A DNA stretch of 64,000 nucleotides from a virus: positions 32,001 through 96,000 of IMG/VR virus record IMGVR_UViG_3300045988_165974; one strand, 5' to 3'. Numbering within the stretch: the stretch's first letter is position 1; every line of letters begins with the position of its first letter. Below the pieces are notes generated by a model. It did no database searches. It was not told the origin of the DNA and saw only the letters and a program-made list of their open reading frames with translations. The translations under genes were made by a program, and so were the position numbers. This document shows, one piece after another, positions 4,924-15,205 of this stretch.

Positions 4924-6166
4924 CAATTTGTTATCCCATAAGCTCTTTATCTTATGGTTCTCATAAATTTCTTTATAAGTTCAGAGTACATTATCACTCT
5001 CATTTCATCTTAGCTCTCAATGAGTGTCGGAGGCTCTTGGAAGGATTATTGCTTTCATTTTGTCGCTCACCCTCTACTCGTTACGGACAATATTAGATAT
5101 TATTGCCCTCGGTATTACCACTACCCATTTTAGGGGTTAGGCTTTCTTACCAGTCTATCCCTCCTATTTCTAGGTTATATTTTTATGTACTTTCGACTAT
5201 GACCGATACACCCCGATTACGGCAATATGCACTTGAGAGTTTACATATTGCTAGGCTATTTGTAATATTTTGTTTGCTTTTATGTATTTTCTATCAAGAT
5301 AAATGGTTGCATTATCATACAATAAATGTACCAATTTCTTACATTCATTCTGTCGAGAAAAAGACAATTTATAACATGTATTGCTTAAATAAATTATTGA
5401 ATGTAATTCAAAATCTTTCTCCATTTTTTCTTTAATAAATTCAAAAATAGCTAAATTATTCCCTGCTATTGAGATATTAGGATATGATTTGTTTTTATTT
5501 TTCTTAAAACAATATGTACCATCTCCATCAATATACCCTCTTAGAAAATGTAAAAACAAAGTATTGTCTTCTATTCTTGGAAACACCTCTGAATAACTTT
5601 TATTTTGAACTATATTTTTATCTAATAAATCTAAATAAATTGATTTACTGTATACTCTAATAATGCAATTTACGCATTGTTTATTTCTAATTTTTTGGCC
5701 ATTTAAACGGTCAAGGGAATTATAATTACTAATTTTAGAATTAACTTTATAATAGTTATTAAAGTTTTTATTAAATTTATGTAAATGATTTATATCTTTA
5801 TAACTTAATTCTATTCCTAATTCATAGGTTCTATTTGAATGACTAATATATCCATCTGCATAAATAAATCCCAACCGATATGCTTTTTCTTCATTGTCAA
5901 TTTTATCAAAAAAACGTTGATTTCCTTTATCTTTATCAGAAATACTTTGTCTTAATTCTAGCTTGCCTTTTTGATAATCTATTGATTTTTCACTTCTTCC
6001 GATTAGTTTAGATAATTCTTTATTAGTATATTTTTTATAATTTTCTTTTAAAAATAAAATTTCTTCATCTTTCCGTTTTTTACTCACTTCGATTTCCTCC
6101 TAATTTTTTAAATTAGAAGGAATAAAGGCTTATACTCCTTTAAATTCCTAAGCAAACTTGAAAATA
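4924..6166 (-). mobile_element. group I-like intron 2 of terL, with a LAGLIDADG ORF
   Basis: The upstream exon ends ...AGAGGT and the intron ends ...GATAACAAATTG. A structured GC-richer core lies at 4924-5250. Confidence 0.7.
5251..6087 (-). CDS. LAGLIDADG homing endonuclease (double-motif)
   Basis: Two LAGLIDADG-type motifs (LGFIYADGYI and LRGYIDGDGT) in a 278-aa intron ORF. Confidence 0.85.
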   Translation of the reverse strand: MSKKRKDEEILFLKENYKKYTNKELSKLIGRSEKSIDYQKGKLELRQSISDKDKGNQRFFDKIDNEEKAYRLGFIYADGYISHSNRTYELGIELSYKDINHLHKFNKNFNNYYKVNSKISNYNSLDRLNGQKIRNKQCVNCIIRVYSKSIYLDLLDKNIVQNKSYSEVFPRIEDNTLFLHFLRGYIDGDGTYCFKKNKNKSYPNISIAGNNLAIFEFIKEKMEKDFELHSIIYLSNTCYKLSFSRQNECKKLVHLLYDNATIYLDRKYIKANKILQIA

Positions 6167-9912: not shown

Positions 9913-9986
9913 TGGTAGCAGAAAAAGGATTCGAACCTTTAGTTTTGGATAATGAGTCCAATGTGTTACCATTACACTATTCTGCG
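9913..9986 (-). tRNA. tRNA with CAT anticodon (Met or Ile2)
   Basis: Cloverleaf read by hand: D arm GTGT-AATGGTA-ACAC, anticodon arm TTGGA-CTCATTA-TCCAA, T arm AAAGG-TTCGAAT-CCTTT. CCA is encoded. There is a C1:U72 mismatch. Confidence 0.8.
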
Positions 9987-9999
9987 ATAATATCTTTAT

Positions 10000-10031
10000 A
10001 AAAAAAGAGAAGGAGTTACCAGTTCCTTCTC
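10000..10031 (-). terminator. hairpin terminator between tRNA-Asp and tRNA-Met
   Basis: GAGAAGGA-N9-TCCTTCTC, with a T run on the minus strand. It adjoins the only opposite-orientation copy of the ACAGCAAT motif (10039-10046). Confidence 0.55.
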
Positions 10032-10102
10032 TTGTATAACAGCAATTTTTTAGATAATACTATTTACTTATTTAGCAACTTCAACTCAACTAAATAAGCG
10101 AA

Positions 10103-10177
10103 TGGCGACCTACAAGGGAATCGAACCCTTATCTTTGGATAGACAGTCCAACATAATAACCTTTATACGAGTAAGCC
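10103..10177 (-). tRNA. tRNA-Asp (GTC)
   Basis: Acceptor GGCTTAC/GTAGGTC, anticodon arm TTGGA-CTGTCTA-TCCAA, T arm AAGGG-TTCGATT-CCCTT, G73 and an encoded CCA. Confidence 0.8.
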
Positions 10178-10193
10178 ATAACTGGGATTGAAC

Positions 10194-10330
10194 TGGAAAC
10201 AGTTGGATTTGAACCAACACCCTCTTCTTGACCTATAAGATTTAATTTCTTCTTTTAAATATATTGCTGTATGTGTCCCATAATCCCACTAGACACATAA
10301 TTATTTGTGCTACCATTACACCATGTTTCC
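10194..10330 (-). ncRNA. tRNA-like gene with about 64 extra nt between D arm and T arm
   Basis: Acceptor GGAAACA/TGTTTCC, D arm GTGT-AATGGTA-GCAC and T arm GTTGG-TTCAAAT-CCAAC are intact. The middle holds the hairpin ATGTGTC..GGACACAT plus ACAGCAAT. No standard anticodon arm is present. Confidence 0.6.
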
Positions 10331-10476
10331 ATATTCGAGAGAGGAAATTATTCCTCTCTGTTTGTATATCTTGGAGGTTTTAAAATGATGAATAATAATT
10401 ACAATACACTTATTTATATTTTCAAAATGTTTTGTGGTTGAAAAATTAAATTAATATTGCTGTATGTGTATTTATA

Positions 10477-11991
10477 TTATACAGTTATGCAAGAATATCT
10501 TTCTTGATTTACTGCTTCCATCATTAATTCATACCCTGTTTTACCTGTTAATATTATTTCAAATGTAGATGGTGAAAATCCACTTACATATGAAATTCTT
10601 CCACTTCCTAGCATTGGAATATTATTTTGTCTTGCATCGACATTCCAATATATTAAATGTGGTATTTCATATCCATGTGATTGCCATTTTTTAGCTATTG
10701 ATTCCATTAATGTTTCATGTGAGCTATATTTTTGTTCACTTCTACTACTTCTCCAGCTCCAACAATTGAATTCATCAACTCCATTGTCAAATTCCATATC
10801 TGAAATTATAGCAATATTTTGTGGCAAATCTTCTTGAGATAAATTATTTTTTAATGCAGTATTTAATACTAAATCAAATACAGATTCAATATTTGTATTT
10901 TCACATAAATTAGTATCGTATATTCTTCTAACTTTATCTACAAAGTCAATTCCTTCAACTTCTACTAATCTAGCCTTTCTACTAAAACTTATGTAATGGT
11001 CTTTAAATGGACCTTTATTTCTTTCTGCACAATAAATTCCAAGTGAAATTGCTACATTTATTGGAGTCCCCCACATAGAACCTGATGTATCTACAACAGG
11101 TAATAAACTACAAGATTTCCCATTAAAGTAATCTTTTAAATTATCCCAATATTTATTTACAACATTTCTTTCAGTAGTTGAAGTTGAGAAACTATGTCTT
11201 AGTCCAATAGCTTTTTCTACGACTTCATAAGGATATAATGTAGCTGCATTTACAGTAGTCTTATCACTATTCATAAAAGCACTATATCTTTCTTCACAAT
11301 GTCTTTCAAAAGCTTTTCTATATTTAAGTCCTGCTTTACTTGGAAGTTTATCAAATTCTATTTCATGCCAATTATTAGAACTCATTTGTGTTTCAACTAA
11401 TCTTATATGATTTCTTAATTTCACTAATGTTTTTCTATATTTTTTAGCATTCATATTCAACTTTTTAGCAAAATATTTAGCTTTAAGTTTAGTATTAACA
11501 CTACTTGCTCCAAGTGAAGGCATCCACTTAGCTAATAAAGATATTGGTTTATTATTGTTCATATCTTTAAGGTCTGTTTCTAATTGATTTTTAACAATAG
11601 ATAAAACTTCTTTTTCGAACTTAGAACCTTTATATCCTAATTCTAATAAATCGTCCCATCTCCCAAACTCTGCAAAATAAATTAAATTCTTTTTTAATGC
11701 TTTAGAATTATTTTTTTCTAACCATTTTGTTATAACTCTAAATAATCTTCTTTCACCTTGTCCTCCTCGGACATCTCTAAAATAAAATAATAATTTCATT
11801 GATATTAAAGGATTTTCTTTATATGCTTTTTTAAATTGTAAAATTACATCTTCTTCACTACGATTTCTCATAGCTCCCCCAAAAGCGAAAAAATCTAAAC
11901 AATTACTAAAAGTAGTAACATGAGTAGTAGCTCCGTTTTCAGTTAAAGTATAATTTTCTTCTTCTTTTAAATTTCTTAAAAGTTTATTCAT
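10477..11991 (-). CDS. vWA-domain protein with an N-terminal DUF2828/TROVE-like region
   Basis: MIDAS motif VVDTSGSM in the C-terminal half. The N-terminus (TENGA..T..N.LDFF..GGAMR...LFYFRDVRGGQGERRLF) matches my memory of DUF2828 proteins, which are Ro60-like (TROVE + vWA). Confidence 0.55.
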   Translation of the reverse strand: MNKLLRNLKEEENYTLTENGATTHVTTFSNCLDFFAFGGAMRNRSEEDVILQFKKAYKENPLISMKLLFYFRDVRGGQGERRLFRVITKWLEKNNSKALKKNLIYFAEFGRWDDLLELGYKGSKFEKEVLSIVKNQLETDLKDMNNNKPISLLAKWMPSLGASSVNTKLKAKYFAKKLNMNAKKYRKTLVKLRNHIRLVETQMSSNNWHEIEFDKLPSKAGLKYRKAFERHCEERYSAFMNSDKTTVNAATLYPYEVVEKAIGLRHSFSTSTTERNVVNKYWDNLKDYFNGKSCSLLPVVDTSGSMWGTPINVAISLGIYCAERNKGPFKDHYISFSRKARLVEVEGIDFVDKVRRIYDTNLCENTNIESVFDLVLNTALKNNLSQEDLPQNIAIISDMEFDNGVDEFNCWSWRSSRSEQKYSSHETLMESIAKKWQSHGYEIPHLIYWNVDARQNNIPMLGSGRISYVSGFSPSTFEIILTGKTGYELMMEAVNQERYSCITV

Positions 11992-12058
11992 ATCATCTCT
12001 CCAATCAAGATACCTTTGTGTTTCCCTTTTGCTGATTGTATCTTTATATTATTTTTTA

Positions 12059-12132
12059 TGGCAGACTAAAATGGATTTGAACCATTATCTTCAAGATTCG
12101 GAGTCTCGATGTTTTACTTAAACCATTAGCCT
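12059..12132 (-). tRNA. tRNA-Arg (CCG)
   Basis: Acceptor AGGCTAA/TTAGTCT, anticodon arm CGAGA-CTCCGAA-TCTTG, T arm AATGG-TTCAAAT-CCATT, CCA encoded. Confidence 0.75.
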
Positions 12133-12453
12133 ATAAAAATTTCTAGCTAGAAAATAATTAAAATTAATTAGATTAAAATTCATTATACTTGGTTAACTCC
12201 CTGATTTCTTTTAGTTGTGTATCAGGGGAAAACAACAAGTAATTACTATATTAACTTAATAGGATATTATACTTCCGACATTCTTATTAATCGCTATCGG
12301 ATGTGCGATTTATTTTGTTTGCAAACATCTTTAGTGTAGTTCCCGTAAAAAACTTACTTGCTATAAAAAAAACTTTCAGAAATCACTACACATGACAGAT
12401 TATGTAGGTGGGGTCTGTCTCCATACACCATACAAACGAGATGATTTTTTCTT

Positions 12454-12519
12454 TGGACTTAATCGGAATTGAACCGATAACATCATGCCTGATAATTTTC
12501 CCCATTAAACTATAAGTCC
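12454..12519 (-). ncRNA. tRNA-like gene lacking an anticodon (4-nt loop)
   Basis: Acceptor GGACTTA/TAAGTCC, a D arm, and T arm ATCGG-TTCAATT-CCGAT. The anticodon arm is only TATCA-GGCA-TGATG. Total length is 66 nt. Confidence 0.55.
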
Positions 12520-12525
12520 ATATAA

Positions 12526-12597
12526 TGACCTATGAGGGAATTGAACCCTCGCCCTCACCGTGAAAGGGTGATGTCTTAGCCACTTGACTAATAGGTC
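12526..12597 (-). tRNA. tRNA-Glu (TTC)
   Basis: Acceptor GACCTAT/ATAGGTC, anticodon arm TCACC-CTTTCAC-GGTGA, T arm GAGGG-TTCAATT-CCCTC. Confidence 0.8.
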
Positions 12598-12602
12598 ATG
12601 CT

Positions 12603-12679
12603 TGGTCTAAGTAGAGGGACTCGAACCCCCAGTCTCCACATCCCAAATGTGGCGGTCTACCAAATTAACCTATACCTAG
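12603..12679 (-). tRNA. tRNA-Pro (TGG)
   Basis: Acceptor CTAGGTA/TACTTAG, anticodon arm CCACA-TTTGGGA-TGTGG, T arm GGGGG-TTCGAGT-CCCTC, A73 and an encoded CCA. Confidence 0.8.
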
Positions 12680-12851
12680 ATATTAGAGTCTAGCATCAAA
12701 ATACTAGGCTTAATCATAACAATAATTTTTAATCAAGACTCTATTTAATACTCGTTTTTAACAGAAACGTAATTAATAAATTGCTGTTAGAGTCTTTTTA
12801 TAAATATTTAGCCAGAAAACCCATTCCCTTTAGGTGATGGGATGAATGGCG

Positions 12852-14114
12852 TTAAATTGCTACTGTCTGTACCATTTGTGATGTTCTTGCAGTGACTCGC
12901 TTACAGTTACTTAACTTTGGCGTTTTAAAACCTCTTGGCATTGCTGAAAAAACAATCTTATTCCCATCAATGTCCATAAGAATTGCATATCCTGTAAACA
13001 TTCTTCCCTTAATAAAGTATTCCTTGCCAAAGTATTTTACTTTGTCATATTTTCTAAAACCGTATATTTTACCAGTTGTAATAGGCTGTTCTGAACGAAC
13101 ACCTTTTGTTTTTCGAAAATCACCATCAGAAACACATTTCTTTTTGTAAAGATTACTCCTTACATAAAAAGCATTCCCTTGTGTTGATATAGTACAAGCA
13201 TCATAATAATGTTTTTTGTCTATCCCTAAATGTAAACGATTAGTCTTTGTCACATATCCAAAAGTTTCAATAGCATTTGGATAGAATCTGAAAAGCTGCT
13301 TACGGATAGAATTCATTTGCGTAGCATATTTAAGATTACCCTTAACTTTACCGCTTAATTTAGGGTTAATCTTCTCACTATGTAAATCTTTATGACAGGT
13401 GTGACATAAAGTAATTAAATTACTTTCTTCGTCAGAACCACCTTGACTACGAAATACAATATGATGAACTTCTAATTTGCTATCCTTATGCTTGCCTTTA
13501 CAATATTGACAAGTATAGTTATCTCTATTAAGTACCATTGCTTTTGTATTTTCAAATCCATAGTTAACACCTTTCTGATACCCCCAATGTCTAACCTTGG
13601 AATTTGCAAGTATTGGATTTTTCATTAAATGCATATCAAACTTCCCTGTTTCAAATACTAAAGTTGTAATTGGTAAAATAGATTTAATATATTCTATTTC
13701 CTTTACATGACTATGAAGTTTGCTCTGCATTGTAGGACTAAATCTATCCTTTCTAATAGAATTTGCACGATTTAACCATCTTGCTTTTCTATAACGAGTT
13801 TTACGATTTCGTCTGTTTCTACGATACTTTGCTCTTTGTGTCATTTTGTTAGTAATGTCGTTTCTTACAACAATTTCCGACATATAAACAATATTTCCTT
13901 TTTCATCTGATACTGCTGTTCCTATTGTTCCACTACCTGTATCTACACCTAAAATTAAATCTTGAGTGTAGTTTGTACTGTCATACAATAGTTTAATTGT
14001 AAACGGACAACGACTAACAACTTTAGCTTTTCTATCTTTTAACAGATGTCTGATTTTCCCATACCTATTCGTAGGCATAAGTGGTTGTCCATCTTTGTTT
14101 AATACATATACCAT
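12852..14114 (-). CDS. iscB: IscB RNA-guided nuclease (RuvC + HNH; OMEGA system)
   Basis: N-terminal PLMP motif (DGQPLMPT). RuvC-I GVDTGSGTIG. Arg-rich bridge helix RRNRRNRKTRYRKARW. RuvC-II LVFETGKFD. HNH CQYC...HHIVFRSQGGSDEESNLITLCHTCH. RuvC-III HYYDAC. 420 aa. Confidence 0.9.
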   Translation of the reverse strand: MVYVLNKDGQPLMPTNRYGKIRHLLKDRKAKVVSRCPFTIKLLYDSTNYTQDLILGVDTGSGTIGTAVSDEKGNIVYMSEIVVRNDITNKMTQRAKYRRNRRNRKTRYRKARWLNRANSIRKDRFSPTMQSKLHSHVKEIEYIKSILPITTLVFETGKFDMHLMKNPILANSKVRHWGYQKGVNYGFENTKAMVLNRDNYTCQYCKGKHKDSKLEVHHIVFRSQGGSDEESNLITLCHTCHKDLHSEKINPKLSGKVKGNLKYATQMNSIRKQLFRFYPNAIETFGYVTKTNRLHLGIDKKHYYDACTISTQGNAFYVRSNLYKKKCVSDGDFRKTKGVRSEQPITTGKIYGFRKYDKVKYFGKEYFIKGRMFTGYAILMDIDGNKIVFSAMPRGFKTPKLSNCKRVTARTSQMVQTVAI

Positions 14115-14425
14115 AAACAGATATTCCTTTCATTAAATTAAATTAATAACTCAGCTACACAAGTAACTGTTATGCGTACTATACTGTACTGTTACCATAC
14201 AGTTGTTTCGACTTCAACTCGACAATGATATAAAGGCTTTTTACATATACATTACAAGGCTGTTCTTACTCTGACCTAACTTAAATGTATACGATAGAGC
14301 AATGGTCTGTTGCGTCAACCAAAGGTATCATGACTTAAATATCGTAGCCATCATTTCTGTGGCTTAGTCTGGTGAACCATTTAACAGAAGCCCATAAGCT
14401 TTAGCTTGTGGGTAGTTCACTTAAT
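14115..14425 (-). ncRNA. putative IscB omega-RNA scaffold
   Basis: About 300 nt directly 5' of iscB, locally GC-richer and ORF-free. It has several helices, e.g. GTGAAC..GTTCAC and CCCACAAGCT-AA-AGCTTATGGG. The position matches published IscB omega-RNAs. Confidence 0.65.
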
Positions 14426-14695
14426 TATTCCTGGAAGGAGATTTTTCAATTACAATGCACAAATATTATTAATAAAATCCTTTTTTTATCATAAACATAA
14501 TTGCTGTATGTGCATTTAATTATATTAACTTTAAGAAGGTACTTATCAAGACACTAAACATTATAAATATGAAACTTCCTAGAATTGTTCAATTTATTTT
14601 GAGGATTTGAACCTCTAAAGCACTTGTTTATTGACTTATTTACCTATTTGAATTAATTGCTGTAAGTGTCTTTTGAATGTATATTTTTAGAACAG

Positions 14696-14811
14696 GACGG
14701 GAAGTAGGAGTCGAATCTACAACCTACGGCTTAAATGGCAAATTAAAATGCTGTTAGTGTATCCCTTCTATACACATATTACGTTGCTCTACCCGTTGAG
14801 CTATTCCCGTC
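14696..14811 (-). ncRNA. tRNA-His-like gene with about 45 extra nt and degenerate anticodon and T arms
   Basis: G-1 plus ACGGGAA/TTCCCGT plus C73 (His signature). D arm GCTC-AACGGGTA-GAGC. Then hairpin GTGTAT-AGAAGGG-ATACAC followed by TAACAGCATT. Only 3 bp of anticodon stem remain. Confidence 0.5.
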
Positions 14812-14818
14812 ATAATGT

Positions 14819-14936
14819 TGCCGAAGAATAGATTTGAACTATTATCCTATAGCTTCCCTGTTTGAAATTGCTGCTTATGTATTTATCAATACATCTATTT
14901 ATTGGCTATTGCTCCAACCATTTGAGCTACTTCGGC
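14819..14936 (-). ncRNA. tRNA-like gene with a 51-nt anticodon loop
   Basis: Perfect acceptor GCCGAAG/CTTCGGC, D arm GCTC/GAGC, anticodon stem ATAGC/GCTAT and T arm AATAG-TTCAAAT-CTATT. The loop holds hairpin ATGTATT-GATA-AATACAT plus AAGCAGCAAT. Confidence 0.65.
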
Positions 14937-15002: not shown

Positions 15003-15043
15003 TGAGGTCTGTAGGATTTGAACCTACTGAAACCTTCGACCTC
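15003..15043 (-). ncRNA. acceptor/T-arm minihelix (tRNA top half only)
   Basis: GAGGTCG-AAGGTTTCA-GTAGG-TTCAAAT-CCTAC-AGACCTC-A. There is no D arm and no anticodon arm. Confidence 0.4.
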
Positions 15044-15205
15044 ACATTACTAGGGAAATTAATCCCTAGCATTCAAAAAGGGGAACAAAGAAATCAAACA
15101 ATGCACTATTTACATTCTTGCCAGTCATGTGGCATTTTTCAAAATCCAATTTGTTTTATTTTCTTCTCTTGTATATGTAATAATTGCTGTGAGTGCATTT
15201 ACCCC

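What the first reader, a model, noticed from the sequence alone, without database searches (positions are those of the whole stretch)
10194..11991. vWA/TROVE-like protein gene immediately followed by a 137-nt tRNA-like RNA: a phage Ro/Y-RNA-type pair?
**Seen**
- The 504-aa protein has a clear vWA MIDAS motif (DTSGSM).
- Its N-terminal region matches my memory of DUF2828, which shares the TROVE+vWA plan of Ro60.
- About 145 nt downstream on the same strand lies the tRNA-like gene 10194-10330. Its acceptor, D and T arms are intact but its middle is a long extra hairpin region. A 10-bp hairpin (10336-10360) sits just upstream of it.

**Established**
- Bacterial Ro60 orthologues (Rsr) bind Y RNAs whose second domain mimics tRNA.
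- rsr/Y-RNA pairs are encoded adjacently, sometimes in phages and next to RNA-repair genes.

**Inference.** This may be an analogous RNP with a different RNA topology, because here the tRNA-like ends are free. It could be used for RNA quality control or for countering tRNA-targeting defences.
Basis: inference. Interest (0 to 1): 0.6.

Follow-up and report, generated by a model that had tools for sequence, protein, structure and literature searches.

The report
Phage Ro60-like protein with tRNA-shaped partner RNA
A large gut-type phage encodes a distant structural relative of the RNA-surveillance protein Ro60, and next to it lie about nine small RNAs, the odd 137-base tRNA-like one among them, that all carry one conserved tag and are probably the protein's partners in a branch of Ro/Y-RNA particles I could not find described.

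Summary
ORF 10477-11991(-) is a DUF2828+DUF7788 protein with a DTSGSM MIDAS motif. Its AlphaFold model matches Ro60/TROVE structures over the full length; the best match is Thermus phage phiRo60, 9KOP.

The 137-nt RNA at 10194-10330(-) scores as a tRNA (44 bits). Its acceptor, D and T arms are intact and covary in six relatives, but a hairpin followed by ACAGCAAU replaces the anticodon arm.

That stem-plus-ACAGCAA "handle" occurs nine times on this strand between 10.2 and 15.2 kb:
- in the gene's 5'UTR, 4 nt from the Shine-Dalgarno;
- 4 nt after its stop codon;
- in three tRNA-like scaffolds;
- in four free small RNAs.

The same handle accompanies DUF2828 genes in Listeria, Mycobacterium, Bacillus, Staphylococcus, Enterococcus, Campylobacter, Vibrio, Ralstonia, Fusobacterium and Felix O1-type phages, always on the gene strand. 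In a relative it aligns with the Ro-binding motif of the Rfam YrlA model.

Binding and function remain untested.

This scan has reported the same protein-handle pairing before, on other DNA and on this genome. I found no paper or Rfam family for it. New here are the handle in the anticodon position of a tRNA with free ends, a circular permutation of YrlA, and the handle in the gene's own leader.

The parts
10477..11991 (-). Gene for a 504-aa Ro60-fold protein (DUF2828 helical part + DUF7788 vWA part, MIDAS DTSGSM at residues 301-306)
   Evidence: AlphaFold2 model pLDDT 77.8. Foldseek top 7 hits are Ro60/TROVE structures.
12007..12044 (-). Minimal handle element in the 5'UTR of the gene: AAGAUAC-AAU-CAGCAAA-(14 nt)-GUAUCUU-G. 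Its 3' arm ends 4 nt before the GGAGAG Shine-Dalgarno, and it starts 15 nt after tRNA-Arg.
   Evidence: Sequence. A covariance model built only from other phages' handles hits 12003-12047 at 28 bits, E 3e-4. The same position is occupied in relatives L020, L021, L141, L142, L143 and L145.
10403..10472 (-). Free handle RNA starting 4 nt after the stop codon: AAUACAC-AUA-CAGCAAU-(46 nt)-GUGUAUU-G
   Evidence: PWM+pairing score 27.4, above all 30 shuffled genomes. Conserved in relatives.
10338..10359 (-). 9-bp hairpin followed by CGAAUAU, directly 5' of the tRNA-like RNA; not followed by a U run
   Evidence: Relatives keep the hairpin with different arm sequences. Similar hairpin+GAAUAU units precede the tRNA-like RNA at 14936 and the minihelix at about 15050.
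10194..10330 (-). 137-nt tRNA-like RNA with acceptor, D and T arms. The anticodon arm is replaced by hairpin UAUGUGUCU-(12-nt loop)-GGACACAUA + CAGCAAU (10263-10299) and a 44-nt AU-rich stretch. No anticodon stem and no encoded CCA.
   Evidence: Rfam tRNA 44 bits; covariation in 7 sequences; hairpin-form handle score above all shuffles.
12735..12796 (-). Free handle RNA: AAGACUCUA-A-CAGCAAU-(36 nt)-UAGAGUCUU-G
   Evidence: score 23.1, 0.13 expected per genome. Weak full-length alignment to Rfam Dicty_Class_I_RNA, 18.5 bits.
14454..14516 (-). Free handle RNA: AAUGCACA-UA-CAGCAAU-(38 nt)-UGUGCAUU-G
   Evidence: score 27.3.
14548..14672 (-). Free handle RNA with a T-arm-like hairpin (GAGGUUCAAAUCCUC) inside: AAGACACU-UA-CAGCAAU-(100 nt)-AGUGUCUU-G
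   Evidence: score 24.6.
14696..14810 (-). 115-nt tRNA-like RNA with a hairpin + CAGCAUU (variant handle) in the anticodon region
   Evidence: Rfam tRNA 42.1 bits; sequence.
14819..14936 (-). 118-nt tRNA-like RNA. The anticodon stem is kept, and its loop holds hairpin AUGUAUU-GAUA-AAUACAU + AAGCAGCAAU.
   Evidence: Rfam tRNA 53.3 bits with a 50-nt insert in the anticodon loop. Hairpin-form handle score 22.7, above all shuffles.
15100..15199 (-). Free handle RNA after the HU-like gene: AAUGCACU-CA-CAGCAAU-(75 nt)-AGUGCAUU-G
   Evidence: score 25.6. The same position after the HU-like gene is occupied in L020, L021 and L141.
9913..12679 (-). Canonical tRNA genes interleaved with the above: Met 9913-9986, Asp 10103-10177, Arg(CCG) 12059-12132, Glu 12525-12598, Pro 12603-12679. 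Also a 66-nt tRNA-like RNA without an anticodon arm at 12454-12519.

Best explanation
The gene encodes a Ro60-type RNA-binding protein: a helical TROVE-like ring part plus a vWA/MIDAS domain. It belongs to the DUF2828 branch, which sequence profiles do not connect to TROVE.

Its cognate RNAs are marked by a short 'handle': a 7-9 bp helix, 1-3 linker bases, single-stranded (A)CAGCAA(U/A), and a G right after the 3' arm. By position this handle is the equivalent of the Ro-binding stem and GNCGAA motif of bacterial YrlA Y RNAs.

The handle is modular. In six RNAs of this window the helix joins the RNA's two ends, as in Y RNAs. In three others, the 137-nt RNA among them, the helix is capped by a loop and sits where a tRNA's anticodon arm should be. 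The RNA then has free, tRNA-like acceptor ends, so it is a circular permutation of the YrlA plan.

Inferred mechanism:
- The protein docks on the handle.
- The tRNA-shaped body brings the particle to enzymes or nucleases that recognise tRNA (RNase P, CCA-adding enzyme, modification enzymes, PNPase, anticodon nucleases), or hides the RNA from them.
- The handle in the gene's own leader, 4 nt from the Shine-Dalgarno, lets the protein either be made from a Y-RNA-containing precursor or repress its own translation.

Shown: fold, motif, covariation, co-occurrence. Inferred: binding, autoregulation and every downstream function.
For: Fold: the first 7 PDB hits are Ro60/TROVE over the full length, best 9KOP = phiRo60 of Thermus phage phiLo.

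Handle in this genome: 8 CAGCA[AU]U sites, plus CAGCAAA in the 5'UTR, lie on one strand within 5 kb. A score trained on other phages picks 5 terminal-form and 2 hairpin-form sites in the whole 138-kb genome, all in this island. A CM trained elsewhere hits the 5'UTR element at E 3e-4.

Conservation with the gene:
- Handles lie by DUF2828 genes of phiKSUM (5'UTR), Listeria LP-125 (3 upstream), mycobacteriophage LeBron (3 downstream, one of YrlA type), Felix O1-type, Bacillus, Enterococcus, Staphylococcus, Campylobacter, Vibrio and Ralstonia phages.
- In 17 untrained loci all hits are on the gene strand and none on the other.

Reverse test:
- Of 84 matches to AGACACNNACAGCAAT in IMG/VR, 37 have GUGUCU within 170 nt downstream; about 4% is expected by chance.
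- 15 of the loci with that pairing hold DUF2828 on the same strand.
- Of 17 further such records, 12 hold it elsewhere, and the other 5 are 9-80% complete fragments.
- Only 2 of 30 records without the pairing hold it.

Other points:
- Position: the Rfam YrlA model aligns L004 5204-5311 full-length (34.8 bits, E 1.6e-4), with ACAGCAAAU on the consensus acgGCgaAUG, the GNCGAA Ro-binding motif of PMC4201824.
- In 28 handles from other phages CAGCAA and the G after the 3' arm are invariant, while the helix varies.
- Hairpin-form handles inside tRNA-like scaffolds recur next to DUF2828 in L031 and L054, and in L043, whose record holds the gene.
- This genome has no canonical TROVE protein that could be the partner instead.
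Against:
- Sequence profiles do not link the protein to TROVE.
- The model is of moderate confidence (pLDDT 77.8, TM about 0.5), and ring closure was not inspected.
- DUF2828 genes and handles both live in tRNA islands, so part of the co-occurrence could be shared habitat. The control records were not matched for tRNA islands.
- The helix statistics are partly circular, because elements were picked by a scanner that required pairing.
- A generic stem+CAGCAA scan is not enriched genome-wide in this AT-rich DNA. Only the extended consensus, the clustering and the cross-phage conservation are.
- Sinorhizobium phiM12 and several metagenomic loci (L007, L010, L015, L016) show no handle within the DNA held.
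- RtcB, the classical neighbour of rsr, is absent from this complete genome.
Confidence: 0.78

Rival explanations
1. The handle is a punctuation signal of phage tRNA operons. It would be a processing site for a host or phage endoribonuclease, or a leader that helps RNase P, and it merely shares its habitat with DUF2828 genes. The 137-nt RNA would be a processing intermediate or scaffold, not a partner of the protein.
For: Most free handle RNAs sit directly before or between tRNA genes, and their 3' arm is followed by G + AU-rich sequence and then a tRNA. DUF2828 genes lie in or next to tRNA islands in most phages looked at. No binding data exist.
Against: In phiKSUM the handle sits in the 5'UTR of the DUF2828 gene with no tRNA nearby. 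In LeBron three handles follow the gene in a region without annotated tRNAs. In the Staphylococcus phage three follow the gene directly. The handle aligns with the protein-binding motif of YrlA, and many interiors are YrlA-type tRNA mimics. A processing site would not need to be built into the anticodon position of conserved tRNA-like RNAs.
Confidence: 0.12
2. The 137-nt RNA is a real tRNA gene interrupted by an intron or by a small mobile insert, and becomes a normal tRNA after removal of the insert.
For: It scores above the Rfam tRNA threshold with intact acceptor, D and T arms. The 118-nt relative at 14819-14936 keeps an anticodon stem around its insert. The phage has many group I introns elsewhere (earlier notes of this scan).
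Against: No anticodon stem or loop can be formed from the flanks of the insert. The insert is 66 nt, far too short for a group I intron, and no Rfam intron or ribozyme matches. The insert's hairpin and ACAGCAAU are the most conserved part of the RNA in all seven orthologues. The same motif occurs outside tRNA scaffolds.
Confidence: 0.04
3. The 137-nt RNA is a decaying tRNA pseudogene and the nearby motifs are remnants of a repeat; there is no function.
For: ARAGORN does not call it. The single-sequence fold is not much better than shuffles, z = -1.8.
Against: Orthologues at about 70% protein identity keep every pair, with six compensatory changes, and keep the hairpin loop AKUGRGGAUUAYG. Synteny tRNA-Arg / handle / gene / handle / hairpin / tRNA-like / tRNA-Asp is conserved in six contigs.
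Confidence: 0.03

Closest known systems
Bacterial and phage Ro60 (Rsr) with YrlA/YrlB Y RNAs (Chen et al. 2014, PMC4201824; Rfam RF02553)
   Same: A ring-type TROVE + vWA/MIDAS protein is encoded on the same strand within a few kb of small RNAs. These RNAs combine a protein-binding stem-plus-motif with a tRNA-like domain. In relatives the interiors have the YrlA order T arm -> closed acceptor hairpin -> D arm. As in M. smegmatis, the RNAs lie upstream of the gene in one transcription unit.
   Different: The protein is not detected by the TROVE profile. The motif is ACAGCAA(U), not GNCGAA. The YrlA model finds nothing in this genome. The 137-nt RNA has the reverse topology: free acceptor ends and a capped handle. 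There are many copies per genome (nine here), against one to two.
phiRo60 of Thermus phage phiLo with Yrl1/Yrl2 (PMC12135203; PDB 9KOP, 9L5Y)
   Same: It is the best structural match of the model. It is a phage-encoded Ro60 with Y-like RNAs just upstream of the gene, shown to bind them and to attenuate host PNPase. This makes it a concrete precedent for what a phage may do with such a particle.
   Different: phiRo60 is a canonical Ro60 found by sequence. Its RNAs carry the CGAA motif and are not reported as tRNA-like. There is no sequence similarity to the protein here.
Class I RNAs of Dictyostelia (PMC7919456; Rfam RF01414)
   Same: Both have a short helix joining the 5' and 3' ends, a conserved single-stranded motif right after the 5' arm, and a variable remainder. 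The Rfam consensus GaUcuC-CUUACAGCAAU...GagAuC-UG lines up base for base with window 12734-12795, AGACUC-UAACAGCAAU...GAGUCU-UG.
   Different: The score is only 18.5 bits against a gathering score of 41.5. These are eukaryotic, polymerase-transcribed, about 60-nt RNAs reported as unique to dictyostelids, with an RRM protein (Rnp1A) as the known binder. I could not test with these tools whether dictyostelids have a DUF2828 protein.
Small stable tRNA-like RNAs of phage tRNA clusters (T4 species 1 and 2 RNAs; from my own knowledge, not checked here)
   Same: They are non-decoding RNAs of 100-140 nt, encoded among phage tRNA genes and processed with them.
   Different: I know of no associated Ro-like protein or ACAGCAA motif for them.

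Membership tests
DUF2828/DUF7788 proteins (PF11443 + PF25043; PHROG 850 'RNA-binding protein') | Profile matches above the curated cut-offs, N-terminal DUF2828 followed by DUF7788 | tested here: met
   119 and 126 bits against cut-offs of 29 and 27. PHROG 850 E 4e-127 over the full length. 711 phage records hold a homologue.
Ro60 / TROVE (PF05731) | Match to the TROVE sequence profile or to Ro60 sequences | tested here: not met
   No TROVE hit at E <= 1. None in the whole genome. No Ro60 chain by phmmer or by a 20-sequence profile against the PDB.
Ro60 / TROVE (PF05731) | Fold: helical-repeat TROVE part followed by a vWA domain | tested here: met
   The Foldseek top 7 are 9KOP, 2NVO, 1YVR, 9NFA, 2I91 (A and B) and 9NEP, with 529-588 aligned columns, probability 1.00 and TM 0.32-0.58. 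The model's pLDDT is 77.8. Closure of the ring was not inspected.
Ro60 / TROVE (PF05731) | MIDAS motif in the vWA domain | tested here: met
   DTSGSM at residues 301-306. D301, S303 and S305 are invariant, and so are T366 and D398 further on.
Ro60 / TROVE (PF05731) | Binds Y RNA through a conserved stem and motif | not testable with these tools
   Only co-occurrence and positional equivalence of the motif are shown.
YrlA Y RNA (RF02553) | Match to the covariance model; 5'/3' ends form the protein-binding stem; T arm -> closed acceptor -> D arm | tested here: not met
   For the 137-nt RNA and this genome there is no hit; the best is 10.8 bits, across two adjacent tRNA-likes. The topology is reversed. 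A relative's RNA (L004 5204-5311) reaches 34.8 bits, below the gathering score of 69.
tRNA (RF00005) | Cloverleaf with an anticodon arm and an anticodon | tested here: not met
   44 bits comes from the acceptor, D and T arms only. The anticodon arm is replaced by a 66-nt insert with non-canonical flanking pairs. ARAGORN makes no call.
ACAGCAA-handle RNAs next to DUF2828 genes (family seen by this scan; I found no published name) | 7-9 bp helix, 1-3 nt linker, CAGCAA, and a G after the 3' arm, on the strand of a DUF2828 gene | tested here: met
   Nine copies in the window. The 137-nt RNA holds the capped (hairpin) form, GUGUCU-loop-GGACAC-AUA-CAGCAAU. It scores above all 30 shuffled genomes.
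Dictyostelium Class I RNA (RF01414) | Short terminal stem + 11-nt motif next to the 5' arm, scoring at or above the gathering score | tested here: inconclusive
   Full-length alignment of 12734-12795 with an identical ACAGCAAU core and trailing UG, but 18.5 bits against 41.5.

The most novel reading that the evidence does not exclude
The DUF2828 protein and ACAGCAA-handle RNAs would form a second class of Ro/Y-type ribonucleoprotein that spans kingdoms. Its eukaryotic members would be the unexplained Class I RNAs of social amoebae, bound by a eukaryotic DUF2828 homologue. In phages, the members with free acceptor ends, such as the 137-nt RNA, would be processed and CCA-tailed like tRNAs. They would deliver the Ro-like ring to host enzymes or defence nucleases that act on tRNA.
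Probability: 0.15. Interest if true: 0.85.

Novelty: new variant of a known kind. Interest (0 to 1): 0.7.

Why it matters
Ro60/Y-RNA particles are studied in animals, a few bacteria and two groups of phages, and always with proteins that the TROVE profile recognises. If the DUF2828 proteins are Ro-type proteins with their own RNA code, then homologues of this gene in 711 records of the phage collection searched here, including Felix O1-type, Listeria, Staphylococcus, Bacillus and mycobacteriophages that are easy to manipulate, carry an unrecognised RNP next to their tRNA genes.

That would give:
- a tractable system for asking what Ro-type particles do during infection (RNA quality control, control of PNPase, protection from tRNA-targeting defences);
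- a simple, portable RNA tag (helix + ACAGCAA) with a dedicated binding protein;
- a testable lead for the function of Dictyostelium Class I RNAs.

This window adds two points of mechanism. The handle tolerates circular permutation, so it can sit in a tRNA's anticodon position. It also sits in the protein's own leader, next to the ribosome-binding site.

Tried and rejected
- Sequence searches of the PDB with the protein and with a 20-sequence profile gave no Ro60 hit. NCBIfam gave nothing.
- Megablast of 25 kb of the window against cultured phages found no near relative.
- The Rfam YrlA model found nothing in this genome. Rfam at E <= 10 over 9.5-15.6 kb found only tRNA, HEARO and noise.
- The covariance model R1 was built from trimmed handles, with the interior cut to 6 nt. 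It recovers only the short 5'UTR element, because interiors of 36-100 nt are penalised or exceed the model's window. It is not usable as a family detector.
- A generic stem+CAGC[AG]A scanner gives 15 terminal-form hits in the genome against about 14 in shuffles, so it is uninformative on its own in AT-rich DNA. I replaced it with a PWM+pairing score trained on other phages.
- The first alignment of handles (A3) had several rows out of register and was discarded.
- Promoter idea for the box: rejected. The box is conserved across phages of Firmicutes, Actinobacteria, Proteobacteria and Fusobacteria, and its partner strand covaries.
- IscB guide or IS200/605 end idea: rejected. The HEARO RNA at 14207-14420 does not contain the box, and the box follows DUF2828 rather than IscB in other phages.
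- Self-cleaving ribozyme idea: no Rfam ribozyme match in the island.
- RtcB linkage: RtcB is absent here, although relatives have it.
- Supplementary phage list of Chen et al. 2014 and the Sim et al. 2020 review: not held.
- Presence of DUF2828 in Dictyostelium: no tool reaches eukaryotic genomes by name.
Full report
WHAT IS THERE.

The window is part of a complete 138,243-bp virus record with direct terminal repeats. It has no near relative among cultured phages.

Between about 9.9 and 15.3 kb the minus strand is an RNA island. It holds:
- five canonical tRNA genes (Met, Asp, Arg, Glu, Pro);
- one 66-nt armless tRNA-like RNA;
- three over-long tRNA-like RNAs of 137, 118 and 115 nt;
- an IscB-type nuclease gene with its HEARO/omega RNA.

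The finding's ORF (10477-11991, minus strand, 504 aa) lies inside this island.

THE PROTEIN.

Pfam places the N-terminal 285 residues in DUF2828 and residues 298-487 in DUF7788. PHROG 850, annotated 'RNA-binding protein', matches end to end at E 4e-127. The MIDAS motif DTSGSM is present and invariant among 20 homologues.

Homologues occur in 711 cultured-phage records of many hosts. In cluster L mycobacteriophages they are already labelled 'Ro-like RNA binding protein'.

No sequence method connects the protein to TROVE/Ro60:
- Pfam at E <= 1;
- the TROVE model on the whole genome;
- phmmer and a profile against PDB sequences;
- NCBIfam.

The fold does connect it. An AlphaFold2 model from a 20-sequence alignment has pLDDT 77.8 and pTM 0.68. 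Its seven best PDB matches are all Ro60/TROVE proteins aligned over 529-588 columns; only after them come isolated vWA domains. The best, 9KOP (E 5e-7, TM 0.54/0.58), is phiRo60 of Thermus phage phiLo. That protein binds two Y-like RNAs encoded just upstream of its gene and attenuates host PNPase.

So the protein has the Ro60 plan, but it is a member of DUF2828, not of TROVE as defined by sequence.

THE 137-nt RNA.

Rfam's tRNA model scores 10194-10330(-) at 44 bits over the whole model. The anticodon arm is replaced by 66 nt, and ARAGORN rejects it.

The insert begins with the hairpin UAUGUGUCU-AGUGGGAUUAUG-GGACACAUA, directly followed by CAGCAAU.

Six related contigs, whose DUF2828 proteins are 65-71% identical, keep the whole arrangement: tRNA-Arg, small RNA, gene, small RNA, hairpin, tRNA-like RNA, tRNA-Asp.

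In the seven-sequence alignment all 22 proposed pairs form in every sequence. Six pairs in the acceptor and T stems change on both sides. The hairpin, its 12-13-nt loop and ACAGCAA are the most conserved stretch. This is a maintained RNA, not a decayed tRNA.

THE RECURRING HANDLE.

Reading the island showed a repeated box. The octamer ACAGCAAT occurs 7 times in the window against 2 expected. CAGCA[AT]T occurs 8 times on the minus strand between 10269 and 15189. A ninth copy, CAGCAAA, lies in the gene's leader.

In six copies the 7-9 bases just upstream of the box pair with a stretch 14-100 nt downstream, which is followed by G. These are at:
- 12007-12044;
- 10403-10472;
- 12735-12796;
- 14454-14516;
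- 14548-14672;
- 15100-15199.

In the three long tRNA-like RNAs the partner strand lies upstream instead. The helix is then capped by a loop and the whole module occupies the anticodon position.

A generic scan for stem + CAGCAA is not enriched in this AT-rich genome. I therefore trained a position-weight plus pairing score on 28 handles from other phages only. In the whole genome, on both strands, it picks five terminal-form sites with at most 0.13 expected per shuffled genome, and two capped sites with none expected. All lie in this island on the minus strand.

A covariance model from the same 28 handles finds the short leader element at 28 bits, E 3e-4. It cannot span long interiors.

LINK TO THE GENE, FORWARD.

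Handles lie on the gene's strand near DUF2828 genes with only 30-40% protein identity to this one:
- Fusobacterium phage phiKSUM: in the 5'UTR, with no tRNA near;
- Listeria LP-125: three in tandem upstream;
- mycobacteriophage LeBron: three directly downstream, the middle one with T arm, closed acceptor hairpin and D arm in YrlA order;
- Felix O1-type: three or four in the tRNA operon;
- Bacillus 5, Enterococcus 3, Staphylococcus 3, Campylobacter 1, Vibrio 3 and Ralstonia 6.

In the 17 loci not used for training, every hit above a per-locus shuffle threshold is on the gene strand and none is on the other. Sinorhizobium phiM12 and four metagenomic loci have none in the DNA held.

LINK TO THE GENE, REVERSE.

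The pattern AGACACNNACAGCAAT was scanned over IMG/VR without reference to the gene. It gave 84 matches in the 80 loci fetched.
- 37 matches have GUGUCU within 170 nt downstream, against about 4% expected.
- Three more have it just upstream, inside tRNA-like scaffolds.
- Nineteen loci hold a DUF2828 gene, always on the same strand.
- Of 17 further records with the pairing, 12 hold the gene elsewhere. The five without it are 9-80% complete.
- Of 30 records without the pairing, 2 hold it.

Caveat: the controls are not matched for tRNA islands.

WHY THIS IS Y-RNA-LIKE.

In relative L004 the Rfam YrlA model aligns 5204-5311 over its full length at 34.8 bits (E 1.6e-4 for the 13.5-kb locus, below the gathering score of 69). 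ACAGCAAAU is placed on the consensus acgGCgaAUG. That consensus is the GNCGAAN0-1G motif that Chen et al. assign to Rsr binding.

Many handle RNAs elsewhere enclose YrlA-type tRNA mimics. Others enclose a D-anticodon-T set without an acceptor, or a whole tRNA.

Across 28 handles CAGCAA and the G after the 3' arm are invariant, while all seven helix pairs vary with compensation. The pairing was partly a selection criterion, so that statistic is not independent.

The handle is thus a helix plus single-stranded tag at the place where Y RNAs carry their Ro-binding site. The rest of the RNA is a swappable, often tRNA-like, body.

The 137-nt RNA is the circular permutation of YrlA. In YrlA the ends are at the binding stem and the acceptor is capped. 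Here the ends are at the acceptor and the binding stem is capped.

THE LEADER.

The 5'UTR element starts 15 nt after tRNA-Arg. Its 3' arm ends 4 nt before GGAGAG, which lies 5 nt before the AUG. Six relatives have the same layout.

In other phages a handle lies:
- 22 nt before the start codon in Campylobacter;
- across the start codon in Vibrio;
- about 35 nt before the start in phiKSUM.

Two readings fit. The mRNA may be cut out of a Y-RNA-containing precursor, as for M. smegmatis rsr. Or the protein may repress its own translation by binding next to the ribosome-binding site. Neither is shown.

WHAT IT MAY DO.

Nothing here shows function. By analogy, the protein bound to the handle could scaffold or restrain host PNPase, as phiRo60 does. 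Or it could engage enzymes and nucleases that recognise tRNA shape.

RtcB is not part of the core. It is absent from this complete genome but present, with inteins, a few kb upstream in relatives L021 and L141. RtcB and a second RNA ligase lie downstream in Listeria LP-125.

KNOWN OR NEW.

Full-text searches found no paper on DUF2828 in phages and none on an ACAGCAA-type Y RNA. Rfam 15 has no family that reaches its gathering score on these elements.

The nearest described RNA by shape is the Dictyostelium Class I RNA. It has a short terminal stem, an 11-nt motif next to the 5' arm and a variable rest, and is reported as unique to dictyostelids. The Rfam consensus ...CUUACAGCAAU...UG lines up with window 12734-12795, but only at 18.5 bits.

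This scan's own earlier notes already describe the protein-handle pairing on other genomes. On this genome they cover the two tRNA-likes at 14696-14936 and the nine boxes. I reached the same reading before opening them. I took from them the leads to the phiLo paper and to Class I RNAs, and checked both.

VERDICT.

- The Ro/Y-type interpretation is supported by fold and comparative evidence.
- The system is a new variant of a known kind.
- Binding, processing and function await experiment.

Noticed in passing
window 12852-14114 (-) and 14207-14420 (-): An IscB-type nuclease gene (RRXRR E 1.9e-52 + HNH, PLMP-like N-terminus) has its HEARO/omega RNA directly upstream (104 bits, gathering score 83). 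It is embedded in the phage tRNA/handle-RNA island. Relatives L020 and L021 have a structured ORF-free stretch and a PDDEXK_5 gene at the corresponding place instead.
   Followed up: partly
window 12454-12519 (-): A 66-nt tRNA-like RNA has good acceptor, D and T arms, but only 12 nt where the 18 model positions of the anticodon arm should be (Rfam tRNA 44.9 bits). ARAGORN does not call it.
   Followed up: no
window about 15005-15050 (-): An acceptor/T-arm minihelix, GAGGUC-(10 nt)-GUAGGUUCAAAUCCUAC-A-GACCUC, is preceded by a hairpin + GUAAUGU. This is the same hairpin-plus-leader unit that precedes the 137-nt and 118-nt tRNA-like RNAs. Relatives L020 and L021 have a similar unit.
   Followed up: no
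window 10278-10289 (-), loop of the handle hairpin in the 137-nt RNA: The 12-13-nt loop A(G/U)UG(A/G)GGAUUA(U/C)G is nearly invariant in all seven orthologues. It contains a Shine-Dalgarno-like GAGG/GGGA. The capped handles of the other two tRNA-likes have short, unrelated loops. Unexplained.
   Followed up: partly
L021 1620-3809 and L141 1108-3249: Relatives at about 70% protein identity carry an RtcB RNA ligase gene 3.7-4.2 kb upstream of the DUF2828 gene, interrupted by an intein-type LAGLIDADG insert in L021. This phage's complete genome has no RtcB.
   Followed up: partly
L015 10593-10704: A drum RNA (Rfam RF02958, 70.8 bits, gathering score 43) lies among tRNA genes 3 kb downstream of a DUF2828 gene in a metagenomic phage contig that showed no handle in the DNA held.
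   Followed up: no
L012 790-936, L013 7858-8004, L014 596-742: A handle-like match (CUGCUUA-AUA-CAGCAAU ... UAAGUGG-G) lies inside the DUF2828 coding sequence of three related contigs. It may be chance or a site within the mRNA.
   Followed up: no
window 10039-10046 (+): The only plus-strand ACAGCAAT in the island sits next to a 10-bp inverted repeat (TTCTCTTGTA...TACAAGGGAA) whose other arm overlaps tRNA-Asp on the other strand. I judged it chance.
   Followed up: partly
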